This document shows positions 14,843 through 62,370 of a DNA stretch of 64,000 nt, in pieces. The notes beneath the pieces were generated by a model that searched no databases, was not told where the DNA came from, and saw only the letters and a program-made list of their open reading frames with translations. Every line of letters begins with the position of its first letter. Positions within the stretch are counted from its first letter, which is position 1. The stretch is from Eledone cirrhosa (Eukaryota), in the NCBI GenBank assembly GCA_964016885.1, contig OZ024746.1, forward strand, positions 85,870,001 to 85,934,000, given 5' to 3'. The translations under genes and the position numbers were made by a program.

Positions 14843-15094
14843 CTGTCAAAAAGAAAGGAATAAATGATTATGTTATAGAAAGACAAAGATAAATAATATA
14901 AAACATTAGAACAGCAATAAATACATCTGTATTAGTAACAAACAATGAGGGTAGGAAGTCGGCTTATATATGCCACCTCAACAATGTGTTGGTTAGCTAT
15001 CTCAGCTTATAAATGGATTTTTGCCCATTTCTCAGACATAGAACAGGGGGGTCGGCTTATATTTGAATAATATATTTCTGTCACCATTTTTCAA

Positions 15095-16900
15095 AGACAA
15101 TGGTAATACTAGAAGGTGTCATACAAAAAGATTGGTGCAGTAGCATCATTGTCAACTGCTACAAAGGTAAAGGTGATGCACTCGATAGAAGAAACTATAG
15201 AGGTATAAAGCTGATGAACCAGGTCATGAAAGTAACAGAAAGAGTTATAGCACAGTTGATTAGGGACCGGGTGAAACTAGATGAGATGCAATTTGGGTTT
15301 GTACCAGGAAGAGGTACCACTGATGCCCTCTTCCTTGTGAGGCAGTTACAGGAAAAGTACCTAGCTAAAAGTAAGCCACTCTACCTGGCATTCGTCGATC
15401 TCGAGAAAGCCTTTGACAGAGTTCCACGTGCTGTAATCTGGTGGGCTCTTAGAAAACTAGGAGTAGATGAATGGCTTGTGAAAGCTGTACAAGCCATGTA
15501 TAGGGGAGCAGTCAGCAAAGTTAGGATTAGCAATGAGTATAGCGAGGAATTTAGCGTACAGGTTGGAGTCCACCAGGGCTCTGTTCTTAGCCCTCTCCTG
15601 TTCATCATAGTCCTGCAGGCAATAACGGAGGAGTTTAAGACCGGATGCCCGTGGGAACTCCTGTATGCTGATGACCTCACACTTATAGCTGAATCTATGG
15701 TAGAACTAGAGAAGAAATTCCATACTTGGAAGCAGGGACTAGAAAGAAAGGGTCTCAAAGTCAACATGACAAAGACTAAGGTCCTTGTAAGTAGACGAGA
15801 AAACAGAACCCAGATCCCCTCAGGGAAATGGCTTTGCTCAGTATGTAGGAAAGGTGTAGGTAGGAACTCCATTCTCTGCCCCAAATGCAAACAATGGGTA
15901 CACAAGAGATGTAGCGGGATCTCAGGAAGCTTAATTAAGAATGTAGGTTTCACATGCAGCAGCTGTACTGGGACAGCAAGCAGCAAACAGCCACAGGAAA
16001 CAAGTACCACCAATCTCTGGGAGGGCTCTGTAGAGACAGTAGACAGCTTCTGCTACCTGCGGAGGTGGGTGTTCAGAAAGTACAATAACTAGGGTGAGAA
16101 CGGGATGGAAGAAGTTCAGGGAACTACTGCCACTGCTAGCTGCAAAAGGCTTCTCCCTCAAAATGAAAGGCAGACTGTATGATGCGTGTATCCGAACAGC
16201 AACGTTACATGGTAGTGAGACCTGGGCGCTGAAGGTGGAAGACTTACGTAGATTAGAGAGAAACGAAGCCTGCATGCTCCGATGGATGTGTAATAGTAAT
16301 ATACGCGAACGACAAAGCATAAATGAATTGAGAGAGAGACTGAGCATAAGAGGAATCAAATGCTGTGTGCAGGAGAAGCGGTTGTGTTGGTATGGACATG
16401 TGATGCGTATGAAGGATGACAGCTGCATAAAAAGGTGCAGAGCACTAGAAGTCGATGGAAACCGCGGAGTGGAGAGACCCAAGATGACCTGGGATGAGGT
16501 GATAAAAGCCGACCTTACCCAATTACACACGACCGTGACCTCTGGCATCACGCAGTGATACAGAGTACCCGACCTCCCATGGGTACAAGCTGAAGCATAT
16601 AGACAATATGCCCCCACACCCTCCCACTGCAAGGTGGTCGTGGAGGTGCCACGGCAAAAAAGCACCGAGCCCACACTGTAAAGTGGACGTGTAGGCGCCA
16701 CGAAAAAGCACCCAGCACTCACTGTAAATGAGGTTGGTGTTAGGAAGGGCATCCAGCTGTAGAAATCAAGCCAAATCAGTTCCTGTATGAGCAAGGCATG
16801 GTCAGCCGACCAGACACTGCCCACAACAGGACATCCCGTCTAACCCATGCTAGCGTGGAAGAACGGACGTAAAACGGTGATGATGATGATGATGATGATG
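15095..16900 (+). mobile_element. RTE-clade LINE, 5'-truncated and frameshifted, in CRIPT intron 3
   Basis: RT motifs YRGIKL, QFGFVPGRGTTDA, FVDLEKAFDRV, GVHQGSVLSP, LYADD; Cys/His finger; YGHVMR thumb region; (GAT)n tail. Confidence 0.93.
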
Positions 16901-20194: not shown

Positions 20195-20818
20195 TTGTAT
20201 ATATATATATTGGGGGAAGGGAGACATTTTTAGATGCTATACCTGACATAATAAAAAAACAAAATACACCCCTAACATTTGCCGGATTATCAATCACGAG
20301 AGTAGATAAATAAATATATAAATACATAAATAAGAAATGATAGAAAAGGAAAAGAAAATCCCTACATTATATAATATTCCCAGTCACCCCTAAATTTCAA
20401 AACCAGGAGGGAAAAGTTCGAGGGTTAAAATCCCAAATGATGGTACCTCAAATACTAGTGTATCCCTTCGCATTACAGTTTAAAGGAATACATATGATCG
20501 CTTTGATGACTCTTATTCGTTTCTAAGGGTTTCGTTTTTTTCTCTTCTTTCTATCATATATATATATATGTCAAAATCTTTCCCTCTGTCTATCTCTTTC
20601 CCTCTCTGTATATCTTTTGCCATAAAAACGATAATGATAATCAATTCAATTAAGAAATATATATATATATATTATTAGTATTATTATTAAAATTAAATAC
20701 CATTTATTCTGCGGCAGAGAGCTTTGTCTTCTCCATCATTCGCTCCTCCAGAATCGTAGTACTCGTCGTTATTGTATGTGTGTGTTTCTGCGTGTGAGTG
20801 TGTATGTATGTATATATA

Positions 20819-21633
20819 GGCATAGGTAAAATATAACGTCCGGGAAAGTGAAACTAATTTTTATGACAAGTGAATGTGTTTGTTTTTTAGTATTGCGTGT
20901 GTGATTATTTTTTCTTTTTCTTTTTTTGTGTATTGTGTGTACGGAAAATTATACTTACCTTATCAACATCCTTATTAGACCGTATAAATAGCTGAAATAC
21001 AGTTGATCATCTCGCCAAATTTGTTGGCACCAACTCTCTGCCGCCAAAGAAAGTCAGCTAAATACGAGGGGAATAAATCGTCGCTTGTCCCATGTTGTCG
21101 ACGGAGCTTTTTCTTCGCACGGCTCCAAGTGTTCTCTCGTGAGACTCTTGTCCCCATTATACAGGAATGGATTTTGCCAGGAAGCCACATCATGTCCGAT
21201 GGTTGGTCTTCCTATTCTGATAGAGGAAATTCAAGGTGGCATTTACCTCCATGATGTTGTGCACCAACGGAACTTTGTCGATCCTGAAGACCCTAATGTG
21301 CACACACAACTCATAGAGAACACTTGGAGCCGTGCGAAGAAAAAGCTCCGTCGACAACATGGGACAAGCGACGATTTATTCCCCTCGTATTTAGCTGAAT
21401 TTCTTTGGCGGCAGAGAGTTGGTGCCAACAAATTTGGCGAGATGATCAACTGTATTTCAGCTATTTATACGGTCTAATAAGGATGTTGATAAGGTAAGTA
21501 TAATTTTCCGTACACACAATACACAAGAAAAGAAAAAGAAAAAATAATCACACACGCAATACTAAAAAACAAACACATTCACTTGTCATAAAAATTAGTT
21601 TCACTTTCCCGGACGTTATATTTTACCTATGCC
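20819..21633. mobile_element. Palindromic Merlin (IS1016/ISXO2-like) derivative
   Basis: 319-bp near-perfect inverted arms around a 177-bp spacer. Encodes IMSDGWSSY...HQRNFVDP...HTQLIENTWSRAKK...YLAEFLWR (Merlin/ISXO2 DDE C-terminus). Ends start with GG; GTATATATA on both flanks. Confidence 0.88.
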
Positions 21634-21669
<36 letters not shown>

Positions 21670-23070: not shown

Positions 23071-24690
23071 TCATCATCATCATCATCATCATCATTTTAC
23101 GTCCGCTTTTCCCTGCTTGCAAGGGTGGGACGGGTCTTATTCAGCACAGCATCTCTCCACTCGTCACGGTCCCTCGTCATCTCCACCATGAGCTTCAATG
23201 ATCTGAGGTCTGTTCTCACCACCTCCGCCCATGTTTTTCGTGGTCTACCTCTACTACGTCTTCCTTCAACTGGCATTTCCTGGCACTTCTTCACCCATCG
23301 GTCATCCTCCATGCGCATCACATGTCCATACCACCTCAGTCTCCTCTCCCGTACACTACATTCTATCCCTCTCAGACAGTTTCTCTCTCAACACATTTAT
23401 GCTGGGTCGTTCACGCACATTTACACTGCACATCCAACGGAGCATGCTTGCCTCATTTCTCTCCAGCCGTCGCATATCTTCTGCGGTAGCTGCCCATGTC
23501 TCACTACCATGCAGCATCGCGCTCCTCACACAGGCATCATACAACCGGCCTTTCGTACGCAGGGAGAAACCCTTCTTCGTCAACAGAGGAAGCAGCTCCC
23601 TAAACTTCTTCCAACCCGTCCTTATTCTAGATACTATGGCCTCGGAACACCCTCCTCCCATGCTAATCTGATCTCCTAGGTACCGGAAGCTATCCACCAC
23701 TTCTATAGCGCCCTCTCGCATTTGAAAAATGTGTCTATCAGTGCGACTTCTACTGTCTAATTTCCCTGTACATCTACTGCATACATATTTCTCCCTACCT
23801 GTTAGTTTGCCTGCTATCCCGCTACATCTCTTGTGTACCCAGGACCTACATTGTGTGCATTTTATAGAATTTATGCCAGTTCCTTTTCTGCATATCGAAC
23901 ATGGCCATTTCCCTGACGGAATCAGGGTTTTGTCCTCTTTTCTACTCATCAACACTTTTGTCTTAGCTAGATTTACTCTCAGTCCTCTTGCTTCCAACTG
24001 CTGTTACCATAGCCGGAATTTATTCTCTAGCTCCTCTACTGATTCTGCCATAAGAGCCAGATCGTCAGCATAGAGAAGTTCCCATGGACAGCCAGTCTTA
24101 AACTCCTCTGTTATGGCTTGGAGGACTATAATGAACAAGAGCGGGCTGAGGACCAAACCCTGATGTACTCCTACTTGTATCTGGAATTCCTCACTAAACT
24201 CCATTCCTACCCTGACTTTACTGAGAGTACCTCTGTACAAAGTTTGCACTGTCCTTACAAGCCATTCCTCAACACCCAGCTTCCTTAGGGACCACCAGAT
24301 GACAGATCGGGGTACCCTATCAAAGGCCTTCTCTAGGTCAACAAAGGCCAAGTATAGTGGCTTATTCTTCTCTAAGAACCTCTCTTGCATTTGTCTCACC
24401 AAGAAGAGGGCATCTGTTGTACTCTTCCCAGGCACAAAACCAAACTGCATCTCATCTAGTTTGACCCTTTCTCTAATTAGTTGTGCTAAAATCCTTTCTG
24501 CCACTTTCATAACCTGATCTATCAGTTTTATACCCCTATAATTGCTCCTCTCCAAAGCATCCCCTTTACCTTTGTAGCAATTTATGAGAATACTGCTGCA
24601 CCAGTCTTTGGGTATGACACCACCATATATAGCCTGATTGATTATGCGTGCAACCAGTTTAGTGCCTACGTCCCCTGATGCCTTCAGCAT
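23071..24690 (-). mobile_element. RTE-clade LINE, 5'-truncated
   Basis: Three ORF pieces closely related to the RT at 15100 (YADD, FRYLG, Cys/His finger); (ATG)n tail; embedded in TA/TG microsatellite. Confidence 0.93.
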
Positions 24691-25029
24691 ATATATATGA
24701 AGATAAATTAACGGAGCCATAGAGTCGCGTTATTCCCTGTAAATTATGTGCTCAAAGGGAAAGGATTCCTATAGATATTGTATATGTATATATATATATG
24801 CATGTATATATATGTATATGTGTATATATATGCATGTATATGTGTATTTGTGTATATGTATGTATATATATGAATGTATATATATATATATGTGTATTTG
24901 TATGTATGTATATATATGAATGTATATATATATGTGTGTATTTGTATATATGTATATGTGTGTATGTATGTATATATATGAATGTATATATATATATATA
25001 TGTATGTGTATATATATAGATGTAATCTG

Positions 25030-25990
25030 AATAGTATGGTAGAATATTAAGTGTTAAATGTTAATTGAACAAGTACTTTCATGCTTTCGCAATCTTCAGG
25101 TTCATATTCTGTGGTGACAGTCAAGTTTGCAATTTTCAACTGTAATGAGATGGGTAAATTTTGCAAACTGTATTTCGACCAATTGGTGTGTAGTTTCACT
25201 GGATTACTGAAGCTGATTGGTTTAGGCGTCATGGTTGGTTGAGCATGTCTAATGACTTCTATTTGGCTCTATCCAAAGCATCAATTGTTTTGCTATTTTT
25301 AGAAATGATGTAAATAGCATTTTCTAGGGTTTTTATACCCCTAAGAATTATTATTGTTCATTTAGCTTGGGTTGGAATTTATCAATAAAATTCTTTTCTT
25401 TGATTTTTCTCTTGATTTCACTTGGCCTGTGTAATTTGTAGAATGGAAATATTATAAATAAGTTGCTAGATGGTTACTCAGGGGTATCTGACGGACATTT
25501 GGGTCTTTGATTTGCTGTCGGTGCACCCGTGCACGTTCCGATAGTGCATTTCCAGTTTGACCGACATATAGTTCTTCACAATTCGGGCATTTAATGCAGT
25601 AAATTAGATTTCTGCTTTTGCAGTTCATATTTGCATTTGGGAATATTTTTCAAAATTCCAACCCAAGCTAAATGAACAATAATAATTCTTAGGGTTATAA
25701 AAATTCTAAAAAATGCTATTTTCATCCTTTCTAAAAATAGCAAAACAATTGATGCTTTGAATAGGGCCAAATAGAAGTCGTTAGAGATGCCCAACCAACC
25801 GTGATGCCTAAACCAATCAGCTTCAGTAATCCAGTGAAACTACACACCGATTGGTCGAAATACAGTTTGCAAAATTTAGCATTCTGTAGCCGCTTTTCAC
25901 TGTATATAAGGCACAACATTTACCCACCTCATTACAGTTGAAAATTGTAAACTTGACTGTCACCACAGAATATGAACCTGAAGATTGCTA
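25030..25990 (-). mobile_element. Penelope-like element 3' fragment with inverted pseudo-LTR
   Basis: Minus strand 25650-25352 reads MNCKSRNLIYCIKCPNCEELYVGQTGNALSERARVHRQQIKDP...(frameshift)...IDKFQPKLNEQ*, a PLE GIY-YIG endonuclease. The 3' region 25089-25380 is repeated inverted at 25652-25988. Confidence 0.88.
25066..25104 (-). ncRNA. Minimal type I hammerhead ribozyme in the PLE 3' repeat
   Basis: TGAAC-CTGAAGA-t-TGC-gaaa-GCA-t-GAA-AGTACT-T-GTTCA: perfect 5-bp stem I, intact core and palindromic stem III. Confidence 0.8.
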
Positions 25991-26107
25991 TTTCATTCTA
26001 ATACCATTATAATTTTAAAGGATTGTAAATAAAATGAGTAAATCAGACAAAGTTGGAATTCCTTTTATTAATATAATCTTCTATACACAATCATACACAC
26101 CCATGTA

Positions 26108-29169: not shown

Positions 29170-31592
29170 CTACATGATGGCTACAAACTCATGTTCAAGT
29201 ATTGCCATCGCCCGATAAAATGTTCAAAAATATTGAAGCACAAATGTGACTCTTTAAACCAGCCAAATACTTGCACCCGCTGGCACACACATGGCAACTT
29301 TAGGCTCCCCCGAAACCTTCCATTGCTTTGTTCTGGCTGTATGTTCACATGTATCTTTTAAGACCTCCCATGCTTGTACATTTCTTGCACCTTTTCAGAT
29401 CATAATCTACATGAGGTCTACTGATATGACTTTGTTCATGTCTAGTCAAACCAGCTTTGCTCAGGCTGACTCGACCACAGTGCTGGCAAACCAGATGATG
29501 TTCTACAGCAGGCAGTTCAGAACAGTCTCAATCCTCACCTTCCTTTTCAGTGTTAGGTGTTCTCTCCGACAAGTTTCAAAGTGTTCACCACCTGACTTGG
29601 TCAAACGTCTCCACTTCACACGCTCGTCAGCCATTTTCTCCCATTCGTCAGATGAAATTCCAGCACAAGCCAAGGTGCCCCTGATACAGTCCCGGTACCG
29701 CCTTCCTTCACACAGTTCTCCATAGAGAAGTTGCTTTGGAATACAATCATCAGACATCCGGACCACGTGACTGCACCACCTCAACCGATACCGAAAGATT
29801 ATGCTCTCTATAGTCACGCACCTGCTCCGTTCTAGAACTTCCAAATCACTGGCGAACATTTTCCACCACACCCCAAGTAACTTATGAAGAGATTGTTGGT
29901 GAAATCTCTCCAGATCCTTGAGGTGCTTTCTGTATGTGACCCACGTTTCACAAACATAAAGTAAAGAGGAGACGACACAAGTCAGATACACTTTCACCTT
30001 GGTTTTGATAGTGATACCTCGTCCAAAAGCATCACTGGCTTTCTTGATTCTTAAGGATATTTCATTATCATGTGTGCATGAAGTGTTCAACGTACTACCA
30101 AGGTAAACAAACTTGTCAGCAACTTTTAGCCTCTTTCCGTTAACGTACACACTTGGTGCAGTGTACTAGTTTCCAGGTACTGGCTGATACATGACAAGAG
30201 TCTTTTCCAAGCTTATTGTGACGCCCAAAGTGCTGCAAGCTGCAGAAAAAGAGTTCATAATATGCTGCATGTCACTTTGTGAGTGTGCAAAAAGATCGCA
30301 GTCGTCTGCATACAAAAACTCTCGGATTATAGATGTTAATATTTTTGTGCTTTTATCAAAGCGCCTGATGTTGAACAACCTTCCTGAAGTGCGATACCTG
30401 ATGTAAACCCCATGAGAACAATATTTGAATGCCATGAGAAACACTATCGTAAAATATAAGGAAAACAGAGTTGGAGCCGGAATGTCCCCGTTTCACTCCA
30501 TTTTCAACTGATATTGGTTCAGAGATGCTACCACCAATACTGACCAAAGCCTTCATGTCATCATGGAAAAGGTGCAGAATCTTCTACCCTACCTTGAATT
30601 TTTTTCCCACAACGCAGTTCGATTGACAGTGTCAAAAGCCTTTGTCAAGTCAACAAAGACCTGGTAAAGGTCCATACATTGTTCAATACACTTTTCTTGC
30701 AGCTGCCGAGCAGAAACGAACATATCCACTGTTCCTCTTTCGTTTCTGAACCCACACTGCGACTCAGGCAACACATTCAGAGCAACTCTTGGGATCAATC
30801 TATCCATCAATATTTGAGAAGACTTTACCAACTACTGAAAGAAGGGATATGGCATGATAATTGCCACATTTGTCCTTGCCGTCCTTTCCCTTATGGAGAA
30901 TCACCATGAGCGCATCCTTCTTGTGGGACATTCTCATCTTCCCACAACATTTTCATGAGGTCAGTCAAGCGCTGCGTGAAGTTTTCACCACCACACTTCA
31001 AAACCGCTCCACTCAGACCATCCATACCAGGAGACTTACCACAGTTCAGCTTATGCACAACAGAAGTCCCCTCTGCAAGAGAAGATACATTAGCCATTTC
31101 ATATGCTTCACTGGTTCAATAGGAATGGAACAAATGAAATCATCATCAACCTGGGATGGCTGGTTTAAGAGCTCATCAAAGTGATCTCTCTATCTGTTGA
31201 GTGTCTTTTGGGTCGCGCAGTAATTGCTTGCCATCTTTCGATCTCAAAGGGGCCACTGGAGAGCTGAAAGGGCCATACACCTCTGTGAGTAGAAAGTGCG
31301 GCAGTTTCACATTGTTGCCGTCAGATGCCACTTGAACTTCATCTGCTTTGTTGCTCCACCAGGTATTTTGCATAGCCCTGAGTTTCACTTGCACTTCCTT
31401 CTTTACCTGTCTGTAACGCTCATAATTGTCACCAACAGAGATACCACCTTTAAGAACTGCATCAAGTGCCTTTTGTTTTTTGTCTACCTCCTGGTCATTC
31501 TCATCAAACCAGTCCTTGTTTTCTTGTGACAAAGCCAAGGACCTCTGCTGAAGCCTCATAGACCGAGCCCCTGAAGTCCTTCCAGTTGTTCT
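29170..31592 (-). mobile_element. RTE-BovB-like LINE, degenerate, flanked by (TATG)n
   Basis: Broken ORFs: NKDWFDEND, GKSPGMDG, LPESQCGFR..RGTVDM, FVDLTKAFDTVNR, FLYADDC, FVYLGS, RLRWCSHVVRM. Confidence 0.9.
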
Positions 31593-32269
31593 CATACACG
31601 CATACATACTTACATATATACATGTATACATACATGCATACATCCATACATACATGTATACACACATACATCAATCCATACGTGTATACATACATACATA
31701 CATACAATGGTTAAAGTGTTTGACTGACGACCATAAGTTCATGGGTTCATATTTGGGACCGGGTAGTTATTGAATCAACCTGAAATCAATGTTTATTATA
31801 CAGCACACTTCCCCTTTGGTATAATATGACACATAGTAATATCTAACATAGTACCTATCTAATCTGTTATAATATGATTTACCTTTCCTCTGTCAAGGCA
31901 CATGCCTTAGGGGTTACGGTACTGGACTAACCATTATAAAGTCATGGGCTCGTTTCTTCGATCCTGCAGCATGTTGCGTCCTTCAGTAAAATACTTTAGT
32001 TCGTGTAGCATCTTCTACCAGGACTTGCGGCAGACAGATAATATCAGTAATGGAAAAAACCTTGTTTCATTAGTATGACCTGGAAATCAGTTCCACTCTA
32101 TCTTCTTTATTAAAGGCAATCAAATTATTTTTTATTTTATTCTTTTTCTTATTTTTCCATGTTTGTTAAATAAATTCCAAAAAATCGAACTAAATTGAAA
32201 TTTTGTAATAAAATTTCCATAAAAGTTAATGTTTACAATACAATAAAATGAAATAAAATGTATTGAAGT

Positions 32270-32598: not shown

Positions 32599-32923
32599 GG
32601 CACTACAACGCTATTAGCTGTCATATTTGTTGGTGAAAAAATGTTTATTATAAAACTTAAATTTATGAATGACTTGTTTTCTAATTTGGCCCTTTTAAGG
32701 GCCACCTATATTTTCATTTAAGTAACTCCACTTACATCGATATGCTTTATAACCATGACTTGTTTTCTAATTTGGCCCTTTTAAGTCTTCCCCCTCTCTC
32801 TCAAAAAAAACGCGTGAAAACTCCACTTACGCGTGGTAGTAATACGGAAATAAACGATGTTGACGAGTGACGTCACCTTCGCCTGTTTTCCACTGGACTG
32901 ACAGCTAATAGCGTTGTAGTGCC
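32599..32923. mobile_element. MITE with 25-bp TIRs (GG start, Merlin-like)
   Basis: GGCACTACAACGCTATTAGCTGTCA at 32599 and its exact reverse complement at 32899-32923. Confidence 0.8.
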
Positions 32924-33336
32924 GAAAAAGGGTCCAAGTGGGAAAAAAAAAAAAAAGTGTGTACACCACCACAACAAATATAAACACCAGGTAATTGTAA
33001 ATACATCGCTAAATAGTGTTAAAACAACTATAGATTGAGCCAATTACAGAACGTCTAAGCGTTCACTCGACCAGCTAGAAATATGAATTAAATCTTCTTA
33101 AATATGGAAAGGATACATTAGATAACGTATTTCTGTATTCCTAACACAGATCTGCTCAATTAAGGTTGATATGAGGATAAAATAAAAAATACAAAACAGT
33201 AACAATTAATATTGTTTTTCCGAAATAACATAATATTGCCTGATATATTAGCGATCTTGTTAAAAAATATAACATTCGAAACTAGTGCACATCAAAGTTA
33301 TAATATAATATATATATATTTAAACAGTATACTTAC

Positions 33337-33352
33337 ATTTCTCACAGACCAT
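33337..33352 (-). CDS. CRIPT: CRIPT exon 1, coding part
   Basis: Minus strand ATG GTC TGT GAG AAA T|gtaagt = MVCEK(C), as in the CRIPT N-terminus. The five exons total 300 nt = 99 aa plus stop. Confidence 0.92.
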
Positions 33353-33639
33353 TGTGAAATAAATATTTTGATAGTGACTCTTCTCTCCAGTAACTAAAAC
33401 TATACAAGAGTTACAAACCTAAGGGAGACCACTTATTGTCGCTTGTCGCTGTTCACGTATATATATCCGTGAAATTGCAATAAAATCTTACAAATAGCAG
33501 AACACATTGGATAAGGAAGTCCTAGACACACTATATTTGAATAAAAGATGATAAATTTATAGATCGACACCGCCACCGATTTTAGTGGAAAATCATTTTT
33601 TTCTTCGTGTGCTATCAATTAACCTTACCTCTTTTTCCC

Positions 33640-34360
33640 CGGAAAAGGGAGGAAGGACCTCGGACGTTTCACCCCTATCCCACCGATTTCAACGCGCTGA
33701 CCTGGCCGAGAGAGAGAGACCTAAACGGATCAGTGTGTGAGATTGTTGACCATTACATCCTGGTTAGTCGATATGAACGCTGGAACTGCTGGAATCAGAC
33801 CTGCCAACCTTTAAAAACTCAAACAGGGAGATTTTGCATTATGAAAGTTATACCCACTTTCACAAGAGAAGACATCTCTCAACCACCCAAAAGTGGGTGG
33901 GAGGTCTCCCTGTTTCCAAAACTCCAGACATAGGATATGCACCAAGGAAGTTCATCTCAGAGACATAAACCCGAGCAAGGTGTTTATGTGGAAGACCAGC
34001 AGTCGCCCATGCATACCGGTCTCCTCTCTCCGTGTCACTGATGTTGTCCAAAGGAAAGGCAAAGGCACCAGTGACATCGCAACCCATTTCTACAGCCAAA
34101 TGAATTGGAGCAAGGACAAAACACACCGGTCCAAGTATCGAACTCAAAATTTTCCCTGGATGAATTGAGATGTGCTGTATATAGCCTTATTGACAATACA
34201 TATGTCTGATGCTCATTTGCACATAGCAAGTAGAAAACAGCGGTTGGAAATGCTCATCACGTAAAATCTATAGAGTCTATTTTCATTCAGTACCGGTTGA
34301 GTGAATATCACTGATGAAAAATTAACGAATCTTGAAATAGTTCTGTCTGGCATTCTCGAC
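33640..34360 (+). mobile_element. Highly decayed Penelope-like 3' fragment
   Basis: Frameshifted VYV(G)KTSSR...TSDIATHF remnants resemble a PLE GIY-YIG domain; followed by a same-strand hammerhead. Confidence 0.4.
34303..34355 (+). ncRNA. Type I hammerhead ribozyme (slightly decayed)
   Basis: GAATATCA-CTGATGA-aaaatt-aacg-aatctt-GAA-ATAG-tt-CTGT-C-TGGCATTC; one mismatch in each of stems I and II. Confidence 0.7.
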
Positions 34361-34489: not shown

Positions 34490-34551
34490 TAGATGAGATT
34501 CTACAGGACTAGAACTGTTTCATTCTTTAGAAATCATCAGAATCTCATCTA
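34490..34551 (-). ncRNA. Hammerhead ribozyme motif
   Basis: Minus strand TAGATGAGATT-CTGATGA-t-TTC-taaa-GAA-t-GAA-ACAG-ttctagtc-CTGT-A-g-AATCTCATCTA; 11-bp stem I, off register by one nucleotide. Confidence 0.65.
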
Positions 34552-34651
34552 TATTAAAACTTTTATACTCTGCAATGTATTGAGTACCTTACTTACTGTG
34601 GTTACCTCCGATTCAACCCGGAATAACGTACTATATATATATATATATATA

Positions 34652-36605
34652 TATCGTTAAAATACCGTCACATATAGAACAAGTCTACAATCAACCATAC
34701 GATTTAAAATCGATAAAGGAAGATTCGGGCCAAACAGATAAAAAATATCAATAAAACAATACGTCAATAATTTAAATGAATGTAAAATCATACCCGGACC
34801 CACTAGAAAGGTGTTAAATCTAGCTTCATGGGTTTCTGTAAATCCTTAGACAGTACTCTATCAGCTCACATATAAATATAAAAGCCTACTAGAATAAGTG
34901 GAACGGAGTTTACGTTGTCAACGAGTTTTATCCTGGCGGCAAAGGAGTCAACTAGCGGTGAAAAACGCACATGGCATTAGACAAGGGAGATGACCCCTAT
35001 ATCCGCGAAAACAATTCGAGTGAATGTGGAAATACACATATCGAATTAGAGTGCTCAATAGACATGTTAAAATAAAACAAAAGCTATTCATCACTCAATA
35101 GAATCGACAAAAAATGAGCAATAAAATTAACTGGTGGATAGCTATGTCCAGAGCTAAATATATTAGAAAGATCGAGTATCGAAAAATCGGCGCACGAGTT
35201 CACGAAAAACGAAATTCGATATGAGCGGCAGAGGGCTCAATAATTCAGATGAATCAGAGCTATAACTATCGTTAAAATACCGTCACATATAGAACAAGTC
35301 TACAATCAACCATACGATTTAAAATCGATAAAGGAAGATTCGGGCCAAACAGATAAAAAATATCAATAAAACAATACGTCAATAATTTAAATGAATGTAA
35401 AATCATACCCGGACCCACTAGAAAGGTGTTAAATCTAGCTTCATGGGTTTCTGTAAATCCTTAGACAGTACTCTATCAGCTCACATATAAATATAAAAGC
35501 CTACTAGAATAAGTGGAACGGAGTTTACGTTGTCAACGAGTTTTATCCTGGCGGCAAAGGAGTCAACTAGCGGTGAAAAACGCACATGGCATTAGACAAG
35601 GGAGATGACCCCTATATCCGCGAAAACAATTCGAGTGAATGTGGAAATACACATATCGAATTAGAGTGCTCAATAGACATGTTAAAATAAAACAAAAGCT
35701 ATTCATCACTCAATAGAATCGACAAAAAATGAGCAATAAAATTAACTGGTGGATAGCTATGTCCAGAGCTAAATATATTAGAAAGATCGAGTATCGAAAA
35801 ATCGGCGCACGAGTTCACGAAAAACGAAATTCGATATGAGCGGCAGAGGGCTCAATAATTCAGATGAATCAGAGCTATAACTATCGTTAAAATACCGTCA
35901 CATATAGAACAAGTCTACAATCAACCATACGATTTAAAATCGATAAAGGAAGATTCGGGCCAAACAGATAAAAAATATCAATAAAACAATACGTCAATAA
36001 TTTAAATGAATGTAAAATCATACCCGGACCCACTAGAAAGGTGTTAAATCTAGCTTCATGGGTTTCTGTAAATCCTTAGACAGTACTCTATCAGCTCACA
36101 TATAAATATAAAAGCCTACTAGAATAAGTGGAACGGAGTTTACGTTGTCAACGAGTTTTATCCTGGCGGCAAAGGAGTCAACTAGCGGTGAAAAACGCAC
36201 ATGGCATTAGACAAGGGAGATGACCCCTATATCCGCGAAAACAATTCGAGTGAATGTGGAAATACACATATCGAATTAGAGTGCTCAATAGACATGTTAA
36301 AATAAAACAAAAGCTATTCATCACTCAATAGAATCGACAAAAAATGAGCAATAAAATTAACTGGTGGATAGCTATGTCCAGAGCTAAATATATTAGAAAG
36401 ATCGAGTATCGAAAAATCGGCGCACGAGTTCACGAAAAACGAAATTCGATATGAGCGGCAGAGGGCTCAATAATTCAGATGAATCAGAGCTATAACTATC
36501 GTTAAAATACCGTCACATATAGAACAAGTCTACAATCAACCATACGATTTAAAATCGATAAAGGAAGATTCGGGCCAAACAGATAAAAAATATCAATAAA
36601 ACAAT
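34652..36605 (+). repeat. 615-bp tandem array, left arm (~3.2 copies)
   Basis: gttaaaataccgtcac recurs at 34656, 35271, 35886 and 36501; no differences seen between copies. Confidence 0.98.
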
Positions 36606-39144
36606 CTGAATTATTGAGCCCTCTGCCGCTCATATCGAATTTCGTTTTTCGTGAACTCGTGCGCCGATTTTTCGATACTCGATCTTTCTAATATATTTAG
36701 CTCTGGACATAGCTATCCACCAGTTAATTTTATTGCTCATTTTTTGTCGATTCTATTGAGTGATGAATAGCTTTTGTTTTATTTTAACATGTCTATTGAG
36801 CACTCTAATTCGATATGTGTATTTCCACATTCACTCGAATTGTTTTCGCGGATATAGGGGTCATCTCCCTTGTCTAATGCCATGTGCGTTTTTCACCGCT
36901 AGTTGACTCCTTTGCCGCCAGGATAAAACTCGTTGACAACGTAAACTCCGTTCCACTTATTCTAGTAGGCTTTTATATTTATATGTGAGCTGATAGAGTA
37001 CTGTCTAAGGATTTACAGAAACCCATGAAGCTAGATTTAACACCTTTCTAGTGGGTCCGGGTATGATTTTACATTCATTTAAATTATTGACGTATTGTTT
37101 TATTGATATTTTTTATCTGTTTGGCCCGAATCTTCCTTTATCGATTTTAAATCGTATGGTTGATTGTAGACTTGTTCTATATGTGACGGTATTTTAACGA
37201 TAGTTATAGCTCTGATTCATCTGAATTATTGAGCCCTCTGCCGCTCATATCGAATTTCGTTTTTCGTGAACTCGTGCGCCGATTTTTCGATACTCGATCT
37301 TTCTAATATATTTAGCTCTGGACATAGCTATCCACCAGTTAATTTTATTGCTCATTTTTTGTCGATTCTATTGAGTGATGAATAGCTTTTGTTTTATTTT
37401 AACATGTCTATTGAGCACTCTAATTCGATATGTGTATTTCCACATTCACTCGAATTGTTTTCGCGGATATAGGGGTCATCTCCCTTGTCTAATGCCATGT
37501 GCGTTTTTCACCGCTAGTTGACTCCTTTGCCGCCAGGATAAAACTCGTTGACAACGTAAACTCCGTTCCACTTATTCTAGTAGGCTTTTATATTTATATG
37601 TGAGCTGATAGAGTACTGTCTAAGGATTTACAGAAACCCATGAAGCTAGATTTAACACCTTTCTAGTGGGTCCGGGTATGATTTTACATTCATTTAAATT
37701 ATTGACGTATTGTTTTATTGATATTTTTTATCTGTTTGGCCCGAATCTTCCTTTATCGATTTTAAATCGTATGGTTGATTGTAGACTTGTTCTATATGTG
37801 ACGGTATTTTAACGATAGTTATAGCTCTGATTCATCTGAATTATTGAGCCCTCTGCCGCTCATATCGAATTTCGTTTTTCGTGAACTCGTGCGCCGATTT
37901 TTCGATACTCGATCTTTCTAATATATTTAGCTCTGGACATAGCTATCCACCAGTTAATTTTATTGCTCATTTTTTGTCGATTCTATTGAGTGATGAATAG
38001 CTTTTGTTTTATTTTAACATGTCTATTGAGCACTCTAATTCGATATGTGTATTTCCACATTCACTCGAATTGTTTTCGCGGATATAGGGGTCATCTCCCT
38101 TGTCTAATGCCATGTGCGTTTTTCACCGCTAGTTGACTCCTTTGCCGCCAGGATAAAACTCGTTGACAACGTAAACTCCGTTCCACTTATTCTAGTAGGC
38201 TTTTATATTTATATGTGAGCTGATAGAGTACTGTCTAAGGATTTACAGAAACCCATGAAGCTAGATTTAACACCTTTCTAGTGGGTCCGGGTATGATTTT
38301 ACATTCATTTAAATTATTGACGTATTGTTTTATTGATATTTTTTATCTGTTTGGCCCGAATCTTCCTTTATCGATTTTAAATCGTATGGTTGATTGTAGA
38401 CTTGTTCTATATGTGACGGTATTTTAACGATAGTTATAGCTCTGATTCATCTGAATTATTGAGCCCTCTGCCGCTCATATCGAATTTCGTTTTTCGTGAA
38501 CTCGTGCGCCGATTTTTCGATACTCGATCTTTCTAATATATTTAGCTCTGGACATAGCTATCCACCAGTTAATTTTATTGCTCATTTTTTGTCGATTCTA
38601 TTGAGTGATGAATAGCTTTTGTTTTATTTTAACATGTCTATTGAGCACTCTAATTCGATATGTGTATTTCCACATTCACTCGAATTGTTTTCGCGGATAT
38701 AGGGGTCATCTCCCTTGTCTAATGCCATGTGCGTTTTTCACCGCTAGTTGACTCCTTTGCCGCCAGGATAAAACTCGTTGACAACGTAAACTCCGTTCCA
38801 CTTATTCTAGTAGGCTTTTATATTTATATGTGAGCTGATAGAGTACTGTCTAAGGATTTACAGAAACCCATGAAGCTAGATTTAACACCTTTCTAGTGGG
38901 TCCGGGTATGATTTTACATTCATTTAAATTATTGACGTATTGTTTTATTGATATTTTTTATCTGTTTGGCCCGAATCTTCCTTTATCGATTTTAAATCGT
39001 ATGGTTGATTGTAGACTTGTTCTATATGTGACGGTATTTTAACGATAGTTATAGCTCTGATTCATCTGAATTATTGAGCCCTCTGCCGCTCATATCGAAT
39101 TTCGTTTTTCGTGAACTCGTGCGCCGATTTTTCGATACTCGATC

Positions 39145-39156
<12 letters not shown>
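36606..39156 (-). repeat. 615-bp tandem array, inverted right arm (~4.1 copies)
   Basis: Reverse complement of the same unit; ctgaattattgagccc recurs at 36606, 37221, 37836, 38451 and 39066, then runs into (TA)n. Confidence 0.98.
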
Positions 39157-39224
<68 letters not shown>

Positions 39225-39312
39225 CCAAAGTTTATATGGTTCGTTGATTATTCAACGAATACAATTTTACAATAGATTAGAAGCACTCGACAATATTTTT
39301 CTGGAGTATTTA

Positions 39313-39615
39313 ATATTATTCAAAATATTCTCATAACCAAAATATATATTTTATTATACATATTTCAAAGGTGCAATGGTGTTTTAGTACGTTTTCATCA
39401 GATAAAGTATGAGAGATTGGATATGCGACATTCCGCTACGGTTTTGATTATTCAACTACAGGAATTGAATAATCAAAACCGTAGCGGTATGTCGCATATC
39501 CAATCTCTCATATATTATATCTGATGAAAACGTACTGAAACACCATTGTACCTTTGAAAGATGTATAAAATATATATTTTGGTTATGAGAATATTTTTCA
39601 TTTATTAATATTTTG

Positions 39616-39622
<7 letters not shown>
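39313..39622. mobile_element. Palindromic element with two divergent hammerheads
   Basis: Inverted arms 39313-39455 and 39465-39622. Each carries t-CTGATGA-aaacgtac...g(t/c)accttt-GAAA-(t/g)atgTA, on the minus strand ~39346-39406 and the plus strand ~39511-39575. Confidence 0.7.
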
Positions 39623-39656
<34 letters not shown>

Positions 39657-40439: not shown

Positions 40440-40525
40440 AATACGCATGCGCAATAGAAACACTTGATGGCGGTAAACTTTGAAGTTATATGAATGTCAA
40501 CATACATCTGAGCAGTATAGATTTG
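40440..40525 (+). promoter_or_regulatory. Candidate Sororin promoter and non-coding first exon (NRF1-like and CDE/CHR-like motifs)
   Basis: CGCATGCGCA at 40444-40453; TGGCGG-taaac-TTTGAA at 40468-40484; consensus donor G|gtaagt at 40526. Confidence 0.55.
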
Positions 40526-43500: not shown

Positions 43501-43673
43501 TGAACTTTGCGCCCACTTTGAGAATCTCTGATGTAGATAGTGGCTTCTTGAGAAATGTTCTTTTTGACTGAACTGAACTTTTTTGTTTTATGTATTTTTT
43601 CAATCTACATCTTTTTCTGTCTTTTATATCATGCTCATTCATCTTTGTCCTCTGTTTTAGATTTCTTTTATTG

Positions 43674-44759
43674 ATGAATCGCAAAGACATAATGGGTCGG
43701 AAGAAAGAAACTCAAACACCAGTTGTACAAAAACTGAAAACTCTGGAGGGATCACCCGAACTTGTACATGATGCTAAAAATTCCGAAACATTAGTGAAAC
43801 CTGAAGTTGTAAAACGCAGTAGTAGTAGGGTTTGCAAAATTCAGCCAAAACTTTTAGAAAATCGCCAAAACAAGAAAACCAAAGCAAGTTCTAACAGAGC
43901 CATTTTAAATACAGATAAAACTGAGACTGTTACTTCTGAGTTATCCCCGAAAATGTTTTACAGTAAGAAAGGGTTAACTAGATCTGCTAAATCTGTTAAG
44001 GATGACTGTGCATCATCCAACATTCCAAGCCGTATGACTCGATCTAAGAAAACAGTCCCTATTGTGGAAGATCAAGAAGCTCTGGAAGAAATAGACAATG
44101 ATGCACCTGGGATTTCTCCCAAGCAATTCTACAGCCGATCTAGGAAGTGCTCACAAGTACAGTCTGTACCTAAAGTTCTTTCTAAGGAAATGAAGCTAAC
44201 AGAAAAACCTGTTCGCTCGAAGCACACAAGTACCAAACAACAATCTAGTGAGATGGCAGTACAACAAATTCTTAGTAAACTTACTGACAGTCCTAAAAAT
44301 AAAAAATTGTTTCCTGTTGCTGAGGTTTTGGAATCAATTGTGGAAGATGATTGCCCGACCAAAAACACTAAAGTTAGCAGATTAAAGGATAACAGTTCTA
44401 AAACCTCTGCTAATAATGCATCAACAATAAAAGCTCCTAAAGTTACTGCAAATACATCTCTTAGAAATTCAGTAAATACTCCAGCACAAACCACCTCTAA
44501 AGCTGAGGTAACAAGAAGAAAATGTAGTTCTCGTCTAACAGTTGCTGAAATAGTTGCTGAAGTATCTACTGAAGGAGCCAGTGGTTTGGTGAAATCAACT
44601 GGTTCTGACACAAAGACTGATTCTACTACTTCATCAGTTAACAGTGAACCTAATGAAGATTTAGGCTTTGCTGAGCTAAAATCAAAAATAACTCAGAGAA
44701 TGACTACACAAAGTTCCAGGAAAAGGAAAACACCAACAAAGAAATCTTCATCTAAAAAA
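43674..44759 (+). CDS. CDCA5: Sororin/Dalmatian-like protein, first coding exon
   Basis: Acceptor ttttag|43661, ATG at 43674 (or 43692). K/S/T-rich low-complexity ORF with FYSR and several SP/TP sites; phase-0 donor |gtaggt at 44760. The identity comes from the last exon. Confidence 0.75.
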
Positions 44760-44789
44760 GTAGGTATTTTATTAAATACTTTATTTTAT

Positions 44790-45000
44790 ATAGGTGACTG
44801 GGGTTTGTTCTTGAGCAAAACACTTCATTTCACATTGCTCCAGTATATTCAGCTGAAAATGAGTATCAGCAATAGCTGGAGATTTAACTCTGGTGGACTG
44901 GTGTCCTGTCCAGGGGGGGAGTCTTGTACTCTCAGTCGCTTAACACTAAGGAAACTGGGATAAGCACCAGCCTAATAATCCTCTGGGCTCGAGACACTTT
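44790..45000 (+). mobile_element. SINE (second family; related copies near 11430, 52400, 52860, 60420)
   Basis: Core gttcttgagcaaaacacttcatttcacattgctcc repeated across the window. Confidence 0.6.
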
Positions 45001-47645: not shown

Positions 47646-47755
47646 TTTTGTTTTTGTGTATGTGTAAGAAAGCTTGTAAGAATGAATTATAACTCAACAG
47701 AATTGTAATGAATTATCTAATTGTAAATTAACTATCTTTCCTTTAATTTTTCAAG

Positions 47756-49010
47756 TTATCTGGTTCAGTTGACGATGATTTGGAGAAATCTCTTTTACCT
47801 GTAACTGATGATCTTGACTCCAGTAAAAATGTATATGACTTTGAAGAATTTCAAGTGGGATCATCTCAAGCTTCAAGTCGAAAATCTACTTCACAGCAAA
47901 ATTCTAACAGTAAAATCCAAAGTTCAGCAGAGAAAAACTTATCTGTTAAGAAAATAGCTGCAATAAAAGCTGTTTTCAACAACAAAAAGAAAAAAGTCCC
48001 CACAGGATTAATAAAAAAGATAAAAGTGAAGACAGCCACTAAGACAGTACAGCCAAAGAGAAAAACTGCTGTGAATAAAGCTGTTCCAGTGAATGGATAT
48101 AGTCATCAAAGTGAGAAAAAACAATTTCTTGTGACTGAAAGAATGTCTATCACTCCTCTGGACCAAATACTTAATGAGGTTCCCAGTTTTAGGGAAATTG
48201 AGAAAGAAAAAGTAATGAAACACAAAGAGAATAAAATTGTGTCAAAAATTAAACCTGTTTCAAATCAGCAGGGCACAGTGGCTAACAATGCTGTACCTGG
48301 TGCCTCCATTTGGCCTTATTTAGCTGCAGTTGCCTCCAAAACGTATACACAATTGAAACGGTCACCAATGGAGGGACCATCTCCTGCTGACATTCTGAAG
48401 GTGAAACAGTCAGTAATTCCCAAATGTCTACCTCCTGTAAGAAAAACCATTTCAAAATCATCTGATAAGATGGTTGGTGCTAAGAAACCCCCCCAATCAT
48501 CTATATCAGGTTTTACTAAACAACAGATTGTTGAGTGTGATAAACTTGGATTGAAATTAAATGACCCTCCACCTATTGGAGACACTGATAATCATATTGA
48601 CCTTTTCACCTATCCTGTACTTGTCTCTAAAATTAAAAAAACAAAGACTGATAAAAATGACAAGCTAAAAGAGAACAAGGCAACTCCTTCGAAAGGTTTC
48701 ATGGATTTCTTATATGTTGGTAGTGTGGAGCGTTACTTGAAGCCCTCAAAGAAATCAGTTCTTGAAAAGGCTAACACTTCTCCCTCAGCTGTCATGCTGC
48801 CAAAATTTCTCACTGCAGACACTTCAACACCAAACTCATCTTTGGCCAACAACAACAAACCTCCTGCCAAAGGTTTTGGAATGGACTCTTTAAGTATTTC
48901 ACCTGTTAAGGATTTCCAATCACCTTCATCAATGCGCACATATGCTCATGTTTCTTCACGCCGCAGTAGTTTACAGTTACTCTGTCGATCACACATTGAT
49001 GAAATTAAAG
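47756..49010 (+). CDS. CDCA5: Sororin/Dalmatian-like protein, second coding exon
   Basis: tttttcaag| phase 0 to |gtgagg phase 1. Contains VYDFEEF, two KEN boxes and an FGF-like GFGMD. Confidence 0.8.
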
Positions 49011-50404
49011 GTGAGGATTGGTTTTTCTCTTGTTATAAGCAAATATCTAAATTTTAATATATTTATGTATGCATATATAGACTTCACTATTTATATTTTG
49101 GTATAAATATTTTACATATCAAAACAATATACTGATGTTAAATGATTTACTGTACTTAATCTTTTCACCTTCCATTGGTGGTGTCAAATTTTTGATATTA
49201 ATTTTTTCATTTTCAACCACTAAGTCAAGCTTTGCCATTTCTTGAAGGCATTTAAAATGTTTTTTTTTCTTCTTTTTTTTTAGTTTTGATTATTAATACT
49301 ATGATTTCTTTTCTATTTTGAATCTTTTAATATAATGAGTGAATTTATCTTATCCCACCGAGGTTAACTTTGCCTTTCATCCTTACGGGGATCGATAAAA
49401 TAAAGTACCAGTAATACACTGGGATATAATTGCTGGCCTTGTGCCAAAAGTAGAAACAATTAATTATAATTCTTTTTACATGTTTTTCCATGCTGACATA
49501 ACTTGAACAAGACTTTTTTGTGGGGGCAGTATTTTATGACTAGATGCCTTTCTTGTCACCTGTAACGTATTGATCTTTGCATATTGTACTTAGCTGTGGA
49601 TCATTGTTTATGTGAGACACACGTTACAGGTTGCCTGATTAATTCCTACAGTTTCCACTTAGCAATTTTATTCACAAGTCATTGGTCAACTCAACCCCAT
49701 CACCGATTTACTGCACTCTCAAACAATGATCTTTCATTATCAAGGTCTGAACTTTATTGATAACAACAGGATAATAGTAGCCTCTAAACAAGCTAGTCAC
49801 ATTCCATTGGTTTATGGTCATCTTTGAACCTGTTATACCAATTGTTTGGGTAATATTCATGGCATTGTCATCAAAATGCTTCCACTTGGCTATCTCCAAG
49901 CTTTTGGCAAAACTTGAAGTAAGACCATTGTTCCATATGTTCTATCATGAGGAGTGAAATGAAAATGTGATGAGTAAGATGTAGAGTATTTCAAATGTTG
50001 GTTACATGATAATGACAGATACAGCCAGTGAGCTTGCCAAATACCACATATATGCATGAATGAATGCAGATCCACTCTGCACACGTCTCTCTAATGTCTA
50101 TTACTTCCTTTGGAAGGAAAAATAAAGTCTAATACTTTTTCGACTGGCCTTGTATGCATATATGTAGGCATGGCAGTTCACCGAAAATGCTTAACCTTTT
50201 AGTATTTACATTACTATTGTATTTTCACAGTAAAGGCTTAATAATATCGAATCTATCAGATTTTGATATTTATATTGAGAACAATACCTTAACATCAGTA
50301 TGAGTAGAGTGTTACAGCCAGTTTGAACAGGAAGAGGTGAGATAATTCTGGCCAGATATAGCCGGTTTAAATGCTAAAGGGTTAATGTGACGAAGACATT
50401 CACT

Positions 50405-61649: not shown

Positions 61650-62282
61650 ATATATATAGTTTACATAATTTACATAAATCTTTCGTTGCACATCTGCAAC
61701 ATCGTCAGTGGTGTTATATTCATTGTTCCTCCTGTTGTGTTGTATGCCTAGTGCTTTTTTTTTTTGTTTTTTTTTTGTTTTTTTTTGTTCAGTCTGTCTA
61801 TATATTTATTTATTTATTTGCTTGTTTGTTTATCTTATTTTATTTTGTCTTCTTTGCGCATGCGTTTGCGTGTGTGTATAGTGTTATGTGTGATGTGTGA
61901 CTAGTGTGTATAGTGTTGTGTCTGCTGGGTGACTAGTGTGTGTTTATGTGCTTGTTGTTATTGTGCTTGTGTATGTATTTATTTATCTTATTTTATTTAA
62001 TTTTATTTACTTATTTATACTTCTCTTAGGTCAGTGTTGTTTGTTTGGGTGTTGTTGTTGTTCCACTCATTCTTTCTGTTTAGCTTTGGTCTTCTAATTT
62101 CTATTTCACTGGCCTCTCTGATTTGCCTATCTGCTGGGTCATTCCTATGTTTAGATATTATTCTAATTTCTATGTTGTCTATGTTACCGTCATGTTGTTG
62201 TCTAGCATGTTCGTATAGTACTGACCCGTTTTTTCGTCCTTTTAGTTCCCCCCAGTGTTGGTCTATCCTTTCACCTATGCTA

Positions 62283-62284: not shown

Positions 62285-62370
<86 letters not shown>

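What the first reader, a model, noticed from the sequence alone, without database searches (positions are those of the whole stretch)
34652..39156. Perfect 615-bp concatemer with one internal inversion inserted in (TA)n: footprint of a circular template copied by rolling-circle synthesis
Seen: ~3.2 forward plus ~4.1 reverse copies at an exact 615-bp period with no visible substitutions. The two outer ends and the inversion point fall at different phases of the unit. There is no ORF of 60 aa or more, CpG is not depleted, there are many local hairpins (e.g. aattcga..atgtg/cacat..tcgaatt, tgagc/gctca, cgattt/aaatcg), and TATTGA recurs five times per unit. Old satellites here (26668) are diverged, so this looks like one recent event. 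Known: animal non-LTR retrozymes are tandem copies of small circular RNAs thought to be mobilised by PLEs, usually shorter than this unit. Inference: an undescribed, larger circular-RNA (retrozyme/viroid-like) or eccDNA replicon captured by reverse transcription or repair. It creates a ~2-kb-arm palindrome between two promoters.
Basis: partly seen in the sequence, partly recalled or inferred. Interest (0 to 1): 0.85.

Follow-up and report, generated by a model that had tools for sequence, protein, structure and literature searches.

The report
Two-armed octopus hammerhead retrozyme insertion
This is a real, flawless 4.5-kb block of back-to-back 615-base repeats in an octopus-type genome; each repeat carries a predicted self-cutting RNA motif of an unusual form, and the block was likely pasted in recently by a Penelope-type jumping-gene enzyme copying one RNA, probably a small circle, from both ends of a DNA break.

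Summary
Observation confirmed: 3.18 forward plus 4.15 reverse copies of a 615-bp unit, no substitutions, in (TA)n. The host is an octopod. The unit is not a one-off: in one run it lies about 600-800 times deeper than single-copy flank, with many variants, and the right-hand (TA)n joint recurs at the same phase in two runs of that sample. In the whole unit its helix I is mostly sequestered, so cutting is unproven. Both arms have their RNA 3' ends outward at (TA)n, the layout described for Penelope-like elements; a Penelope relic in this window shows a similar layout. Best reading: a non-LTR retrozyme mobilised by a Penelope-like enzyme. The size is within the published range, so it is not a new replicon class. 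No RNA, circle, cleavage or read across the inversion was shown. New variant of a known kind.

The parts
34632..34654 (.). Left (TA)n tract, target side of the left arm
   Evidence: 3 bases shared with the unit
34652..36605 (-). Left arm, 3.18 units; inferred RNA sense is the - strand, RNA 3' end at the left (TA)n (phase 611)
   Evidence: strand from hammerhead and folding
36604..36605 (.). Inversion joint, 2 shared bases; the two inferred 5'-truncated ends meet here
   Evidence: no read across it was tested
36604..39156 (+). Right arm, 4.15 units; RNA sense is the + strand, RNA 3' end at the right (TA)n (phase 502)
   Evidence: (TA)n joint at this phase in runs X4 and X5
39151..39223 (.). Right (TA)n tract; shares 6 bases with the longest alternating AT run of the unit
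36928..37062 (+). Type I hammerhead, U3-A8 core at 36933-36939, helix II 36941-36949/37009-37016, GAAA 37018-37021, helix III, predicted cut after 37057
37543..37677 (+). Hammerhead copy, predicted cut after 37672
38158..38292 (+). Hammerhead copy, predicted cut after 38287
38773..38907 (+). Hammerhead copy, predicted cut after 38902
34792..34926 (-). Hammerhead copy, predicted cut at 34797
35407..35541 (-). Hammerhead copy, predicted cut at 35412
36022..36156 (-). Hammerhead copy, predicted cut at 36027
35158..35281 (-). Segment between and around the two arm start points (109-nt 'tail'); several times deeper than the rest of the unit in reads (one copy given; it recurs in each unit)
39048..39156 (+). 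109-nt extension present only on the right arm
   Evidence: mirror of the left arm ends at 39047

Best explanation
The block is one young insertion of a non-coding, high-copy 615-base repeat whose every unit holds a predicted type I hammerhead ribozyme (a retrozyme-type element), likely written into a (TA)n tract by a borrowed Penelope-like enzyme that primed both cut DNA strands on the same RNA, probably a circle. Shown: exact tandem arms, their geometry, the motif and its fold, no coding capacity, high depth with variants, Penelope relics in the same window. Inferred: (1) a tandem copy is transcribed on the hammerhead strand; (2) weak or protein-assisted self-cleavage gives 615-nt monomers that are ligated into circles; (3) a GIY-YIG endonuclease nicks both strands of a (TA)n tract; (4) each 3' end starts cDNA at an internal site, 145 and 254 nt downstream of the ribozyme cut, and runs round the template about 3.2 and 4.2 times; (5) the two cDNAs are joined at a 2-base overlap, which gives the inversion and the 109-nt one-sided tail.
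For: Motif: U3-A8 core, helices of 5, 5+3 and 5 bp; 0 of 2000 shuffles at these helix lengths, 3 of 2000 at 4/4/4, 19 of 2000 at 3/3/3, none in the rest of the window; unconstrained fold of the 141-nt motif is the three-way junction (-32.2 against -31.8 kcal/mol constrained). 0 of 39 variant positions fall in the 47 core and helix positions (P 0.04; 0 of 6 inside the motif, P 0.08). U3-A8 cores, a base between A9 and G10.1 and a bulged helix II are described for Penelope hammerheads (PMC4209133). The hammerhead strand is the one that folds better than shuffles and the one whose 3' ends face outward in both arms, as in Penelope-like insertions with an inverted 5'-truncated copy, a one-sided tail and (TA)n targets; Naiads occur in Octopus (PMC8557442). 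A purified Penelope-like protein cuts and extends both strands and starts inside the RNA at two sites (PMC11167929). Right end lies on the only 6-base alternating AT run of the unit, and the same (TA)n joint stands in runs X4 and X5. Head-to-tail joints in X1, X2 and X14. Penelope endonuclease relics at 62287-61988 and 25637-25348; the second has inverted arms with 3' ends outward and a minimal hammerhead.
Against: In the whole unit the active fold costs about 2 kcal/mol (4 in the ensemble) and helix I has probability 0.01, at most 0.10 at each of 9 nascent lengths. The core is non-canonical, with an extra A before G12. Rfam finds no hammerhead (it also misses the canonical core in the flank). 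The descriptor was written after the motif was seen. No similarity to a Penelope protein or to six local Penelope-like or flanking stretches (the one above shuffles was A-rich noise), so the helper is not identified. The left end has only 3 shared bases, as do many sites, and was not seen in reads (the joint was masked; 33 of 43 loose ends not shown). X4 and X5 may be the window's own sample, so the recurring joint may be this locus. The tail is 109 nt, not the usual 30-40. A linear multimer of identical units would give the same array.
Confidence: 0.55

Rival explanations
1. Same element and same Penelope-like enzyme, but the template was a linear, uncut read-through transcript of an earlier homogeneous array; no circle is needed and the hammerhead is a passenger.
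For: Helix I is predicted to be sequestered; in the purified system uncut RNA was the main substrate and ribozyme mutants did not block insertion (PMC11167929); 8 of 9 Xenopus retrozyme dimers did not cleave; hundreds of identical units exist as donors; non-autonomous Chlamys elements, a clade mostly without canonical hammerheads, make head-to-tail arrays.
Against: Variants avoid the ribozyme core and helices, which suggests selection on cutting; no substitution in 7.3 units although 41 variants circulate in the family.
Confidence: 0.22
2. A satellite-like repeat whose extrachromosomal DNA circle was copied into a break in (TA)n by microhomology-mediated repair, as proposed for Drosophila Rsp-like repeats.
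For: 2-6 shared bases at all three joints; depth alone cannot tell dispersed copies from one large block; precedent in 10.1101/846238 (abstract).
Against: Does not explain the hammerhead in each unit or why both arms start on the same strand, the ribozyme-template strand; depth peak next to the right start point.
Confidence: 0.12
3. The array or its inversion is an amplification chimera or a mis-assembly of a real repeat.
For: Concatemer plus inversion is a known pattern of strand-displacement amplification (recalled); no read across the inversion or the left joint was seen.
Against: The two outer flanks differ, so it is no fold-back read; the centre is asymmetric; the right joint stands in short-read contigs of two runs and the left flank matches run X5 without a difference; the layout matches natural Penelope-like insertions.
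Confidence: 0.06
4. An independently replicating viroid-like RNA circle that was captured into the genome.
For: Circular permutation, a swarm of variants and no CpG loss; RNA-to-RNA steps were raised as a possibility for such motifs (PMC4209133).
Against: Ribozyme in one polarity only; 60% paired, branched; depth is high in runs that also hold single-copy genomic flank; a contig joins the unit at a GATC site to a host repeat.
Confidence: 0.05

Closest known systems
Animal non-LTR retrozymes (Cervera and de la Pena 2020, PMC7229834, passages; Li, Clavereau and Pollet 2026, 10.64898/2026.07.22.740005, parts 1-3 of 5)
   Same: Non-coding, GC under 50%, head-to-tail units each with a type I hammerhead; unit length inside 51-972 bp; about seven units; co-occurs with Penelope-like elements.
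   Different: U3-A8 core with long inserts in helices II and III instead of the compact canonical motif; longer than the 170-400-nt circles shown by experiment; two back-to-back arms in (TA)n, which the passages seen do not describe; no cephalopod example turned up; RNA and cleavage not shown.
Penelope-like elements, Naiad/Neptune type (Craig et al. 2021, PMC8557442, passages and section 6; Frangieh et al. 2024, PMC11167929, parts 1-2 of 4)
   Same: Tandem plus inverted 5'-truncated copy, 3' ends outward, one-sided tail, (TA)n target, internal start sites downstream of a hammerhead.
   Different: No reverse transcriptase or endonuclease frame; 3-4 full rounds per arm; tail 109 nt rather than 30-40; no sequence link to a helper found.
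Hammerhead variants of Penelope pLTRs, including the U3-A8 core of Schistosoma Cercyon (Cervera and de la Pena 2014, PMC4209133, parts 1-2 of 4)
   Same: U3-A8 covariation, one base between A9 and G10.1, G10.1-C11.1 pair, bulge in helix II; the paper proposes circles as templates for more-than-unit copying.
   Different: Here helix III is long and stable, not minimal and palindromic; helix II carries an insert of about 60 nt; there is an extra A before G12.
Non-autonomous Chlamys elements such as MRC1 and Chlamys-N4 (PMC8557442 and PMC9977147, passages)
   Same: Non-coding, multicopy head-to-tail insertions, microsatellite targets, many short 5'-truncated copies.
   Different: Green algae, (C)n or (CA)n targets, clade mostly without a canonical hammerhead, 3' similarity to the helper is known.
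Mobile euchromatic satellites such as Drosophila Rsp-like (10.1101/846238, abstract and outline)
   Same: Small arrays at new sites with microhomology joints.
   Different: No ribozyme described in the abstract; DNA-circle route.

Membership tests
Non-LTR retrozyme | Head-to-tail tandem units of a few hundred bases | tested here: met
   range 51-972 bp
Non-LTR retrozyme | Type I hammerhead motif in every unit | tested here: met
   7 complete motifs in 7.3 units; U3-A8 variant core; 0 of 2000 shuffles
Non-LTR retrozyme | Ribozyme fold favoured in the full unit | tested here: inconclusive
   favoured in the isolated motif; helix I probability 0.01-0.10 in full-unit context
Non-LTR retrozyme | No protein coding, GC under 50% | tested here: met
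Non-LTR retrozyme | Self-cleavage at the predicted site | not testable with these tools
   needs in vitro transcription
Non-LTR retrozyme | Expressed as unit-length linear and circular RNA | not testable with these tools
   only contigs of unrecorded library type were available
Non-LTR retrozyme | Many dispersed genomic copies | tested here: inconclusive
   depth about 600-800 times single copy; no genome held, so dispersal not counted
Non-LTR retrozyme | Sequence kinship with a Penelope pLTR | tested here: inconclusive
   no match to six local stretches; genome-wide helpers could not be searched
Penelope-like element (autonomous) | ORF with reverse transcriptase and GIY-YIG endonuclease | tested here: not met
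Penelope-like element (insertion signature) | Tandem plus inverted 5'-truncated copy with 3' ends outward | tested here: met
   description
Penelope-like element (insertion signature) | (TA)n target and one-sided tail | tested here: met
   tail 109 nt, longer than the 30-40 described
Viroid-like circular RNA replicon | Ribozymes in both polarities or rod-like fold (recalled) | tested here: not met
   motif on one strand only; 60% paired, branched
Viroid-like circular RNA replicon | Replication without a DNA stage | not testable with these tools
   DNA copies are abundant
Helitron-type rolling-circle DNA transposon | Fixed ends TC...CTRR and whole-unit arrays (recalled) | tested here: not met
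   ends at phases 611, 104, 594, 502, none at CTAG
Satellite DNA | Bulk of copies in long tandem blocks | not testable with these tools
   no genome held

The most novel reading that the evidence does not exclude
Each such insertion is a frozen record of a Penelope-type reverse transcriptase priming both strands of a cut (TA)n site on one small RNA circle and rolling round it several times from two fixed start sites, with a large, monomer-type U3-A8 hammerhead making the circle. This would be direct genomic evidence for the circle-template model of Penelope tandem and inverted structures, proposed in 2014 and, in the papers searched, not shown.
Probability: 0.4. Interest if true: 0.62.

Novelty: new variant of a known kind. 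Interest (0 to 1): 0.42.

Why it matters
How Penelope-like elements make their tandem and inverted insertions is called an open question in PMC8557442, and how animal retrozymes move is only proposed. A short, flawless, protein-free substrate with two mapped start points and a mapped ribozyme site is an easy template for the existing in vitro Penelope assay: circle against linear multimer, and (TA)n target against control. It also offers a natural U3-A8 hammerhead with long helices whose activity is untested. The element itself is a genomic parasite of a known class, and similar families in this genome were already noted by other agents of this scan (unchecked).

Tried and rejected
No whole genome is held, so no genome-wide search. 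Rfam: 0 matches at E up to 10 over 3.3 kb; only chance-level matches on the motif; it also missed the canonical core in the flank, so the blank says little. No RNA holder listed; library type of X8 is not on record and X14 is only guessed to be RNA. Exact patterns found nothing in viral contigs or metagenome contigs. Reagent or spike-in contaminant, suggested by 14 organism labels among 17 holders: rejected, because organism D holds a swarm of variants at depth in the thousands together with the window's unique flank; the shallow holders (depth about 2-14) look like carry-over, since 5 of 5 listed sister runs score 0.00 and raw run X18 gave 0 reads in 1938 million letters. The loose end at 35173 in X3 follows a GATC site and is read as a proximity-ligation joint, not an element end. 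Decayed endonuclease frame on the forward strand, seen by eye: rejected; no Pfam hit, no hit with a profile from 70 relatives, frameshift-aware score reached by 144 of 150 and 71 of 150 shuffles while the two relics scored 132 (its own search query, so not independent) and 60. First hammerhead candidate with the inner core at 36990-36997 (0 of 300 shuffles): dropped, it lacks helix I and does not fold so. Idea that the ribozyme folds during transcription before a competitor appears: not supported. RNA-editing signature: none among 41 variants (A/G changes in RNA sense 9, C/U 13; counted from the list). Protein search with the 62015-62281 frame among longer proteins found nothing. By-sequence look-up in earlier findings found nothing.
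Full report
Observation. The array is exact. A forward arm runs 34652-36605 (3.18 units) and a reverse arm 36604-39156 (4.15 units), every base matching one circular 615-bp unit. The outer ends lie at phases 611 and 502 and the inversion joins phase 104 to 594, with 3, 6 and 2 shared bases. Both outer ends abut (TA)n tracts. There is no coding capacity; CpG is not depleted. The two arms form a 1954-bp palindrome with a 488-bp spacer, and the right arm has 109 extra bases at its outer end.

Host. An exon-like frame at 47747-49054 matches Octopus bimaculoides and O. sinensis proteins at 66% and an Argonauta protein at 54% (3 hits among 7290 candidates). The host is an octopod. No whole genome is held.

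It is a family, not a single capture. Of 24 runs listed, 17 hold the unit or part of it, under 14 organism labels. I laid 8 of the 24. In X4 (organism D) 527 contigs cover the unit with many variants. In X5, the same sample, unique flank 33000-33870 and 34066-34463 matches without a difference at depth 10.3 and 8.1, while an exact unit contig has depth 6616: roughly 600-800-fold, a crude figure, and this sample may be the window's source. X1, X2, X3 and X14 hold the unit at depth about 2-14, with head-to-tail joints in X1, X2 and X14; X1 and X3 show several of X4's variants. Five listed sister runs score 0.00 and raw run X18 gave no read, so I take the shallow holders as carry-over and not as independent hosts (inference). 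A (TA)n loose end at 35158, the phase of the array's right end, stands in X4 and X5 (2 contigs each; only 10 of 43 and 18 of 342 loose ends were shown). The segment 35171-35281 is several times deeper than the rest of the unit; in X8 single contigs give 331 against 25-35. It spans the stretch between the two arm ends, and could reflect many short truncated copies or a core shared by diverged subfamilies, whose traces appear as loose ends.

The ribozyme. Rfam found nothing, but also missed a canonical core in the flank. My first candidate, an inner core at 36990, failed on folding. Notes of other agents on this genome mentioned U3-A8 cores in similar arrays (unchecked leads). Testing that here gave a type I hammerhead on the reverse-arm strand: helix I of 5 bp, core UUGACAA at 36933-36939, one unpaired base, helix II of 5+3 bp with G10.1-C11.1, an extra A, GAAA, helix III of 5 bp, GUC triplet, cut after 37057. 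It occurs 7 times, once per full unit. A descriptor allowing either core and long inserts hit 0 of 2000 shuffles at these helix lengths, 3 of 2000 at 4/4/4 and 19 of 2000 at 3/3/3, and nothing elsewhere in the window; it was written after the motif was seen. The isolated 141-nt motif folds into the three-way junction unconstrained. None of 39 variant positions falls in the 47 constrained positions (P 0.04; within the motif 0 of 6, P 0.08; the variant tables are thresholded and variants are related). Against: in the whole unit helices II and III form (0.8-0.97 for most pairs) but helix I does not (0.01; at most 0.10 at 9 nascent lengths), the active fold costing about 2 kcal/mol. Activity is therefore open. 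The U3-A8 core and the unpaired base after A9 are described for Penelope hammerheads (PMC4209133, parts 1-2 of 4), and one Penelope hammerhead cuts only with its protein (PMC11167929, parts 1-2 of 4).

Geometry and mechanism. The hammerhead strand is also the one that folds better than shuffles. Read on that strand, both arms have their 3' ends outward at (TA)n and their 5' ends meet at the inversion. Equivalently, both target 3' ends were extended inward with the same strand of the unit, as expected if both were primed on one single-stranded template (inference). Penelope-like elements show this layout: partial tandems, an inverted 5'-truncated copy, a tail at one end, (TA)n bias in Naiads, which occur in Octopus (PMC8557442, passages and section 6). 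A purified Penelope-like protein cuts and extends both strands of AT-rich DNA and starts inside the RNA at two sites that bound the tail. Here the starts lie 145 and 254 nt downstream of the ribozyme cut; the second sits on the unit's only 6-base alternating AT run. The window itself holds two Penelope endonuclease relics, one with inverted arms, 3' ends outward and a minimal hammerhead. Each arm passes 3 or 4 ribozyme sites, so the template was a ligated circle or an uncut multimer; one locus cannot decide. No helper was identified: the unit has no endonuclease remnant and no similarity to six local stretches.

Rivals. Linear multimer as template (0.22) is the main one, since helix I is weak and uncut RNA served in vitro, and 8 of 9 Xenopus dimers did not cleave. 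A satellite moved as a DNA circle (0.12; 10.1101/846238, abstract) explains the shared bases but not the ribozyme or the polarity. An amplification or assembly chimera (0.06) is not excluded for the inversion, which no read tested. A viroid-like replicon (0.05) lacks support. That the unit is a hammerhead-bearing, retrozyme-type element I put at about 0.85.

Comparison and novelty. It works like an animal non-LTR retrozyme and meets the sequence criteria: tandem non-coding units, low GC, a type I hammerhead in each (PMC7229834, passages; 10.64898/2026.07.22.740005, parts 1-3 of 5). Units of 51-972 bp and up to seven repeats are ordinary there. Cleavage, circles and dispersal are untested. What differs is the large U3-A8 motif and the two-armed (TA)n insertion. 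Searches listed no paper on cephalopod retrozymes or on two-armed retrozyme insertions; the library is incomplete and no supplements were read. Copying of a circle to more than unit length was proposed in 2014. Other agents reported like families in this and another genome; these are unchecked and not independent support, and whether their 615-nt family is this one could not be checked (one search found no match by sequence).

Verdict. Real, young, and explained as a new variant of a known kind. Interest 0.42; about 0.62 if the two-strand, rolling-circle reading is borne out.

Noticed in passing
window 34492-34631 (- strand): Short, very high-copy element between two TA tracts, directly left of the array (summed depth about a million in X5). 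It holds a canonical CUGAUGA/GAAA hammerhead core, but in this copy a hairpin sequesters it by about 9 kcal/mol. No similarity to the 615-bp unit.
   Followed up: partly
window 25025-26105: Penelope-like relic: GIY-YIG endonuclease frame with CCHH-type cysteines on the - strand, inverted arms 25089-25393 and 25641-25988 with 3' ends outward, and a minimal hammerhead with core at 25099-25093 on the - strand read from the sequence.
   Followed up: partly
window 61988-62400 (- strand): C-terminal endonuclease of a Penelope-like element interrupted by an 80-bp (TA)n tract; 70 relatives found, some with reverse transcriptase motifs and weak GIY-YIG Pfam hits.
   Followed up: yes
window 39151, 61407, 62364: The three longest perfect TA tracts (73, 56, 80 bp) are each preceded by TTTCTA on one strand, in otherwise unrelated sequence. 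May reflect a cutting or priming preference; unexplained.
   Followed up: partly
window 34882-35029: A variant that skips about 148 bases stands in X5 at depth 655. It would remove the U3-A8 core and leave the inner CUGAUAGA core next to upstream sequence: possibly a shorter sister family with a different core.
   Followed up: partly
runs X5 and X8 over window 34664-35266: The commonest unit variant differs between two samples of organism D at seven positions: different individuals or different library types.
   Followed up: no
window 39310-39640: Near-perfect hairpin with arms of about 150 bp just right of the array, ending in a TA tract.
   Followed up: no
window 20803-21650: 336-bp inverted repeat, 98.5% alike, overlapping a transposase-like frame at 21007-21477 (likeness recalled).
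   Followed up: no
window 43572-44963 (+), 47747-49057 (+): Two long open frames, probably exons; the second matches uncharacterised octopod proteins at 66% and 54%.
   Followed up: partly
window 15067-16558, 23356-24729, 29503-31670: Broken LINE reverse-transcriptase frames, RTE-like by recall.
   Followed up: no
window 32820-32995 and 40440-40512: CpG-rich stretches each ending in a GT donor-like site, seen by eye; possible first exons.
   Followed up: no
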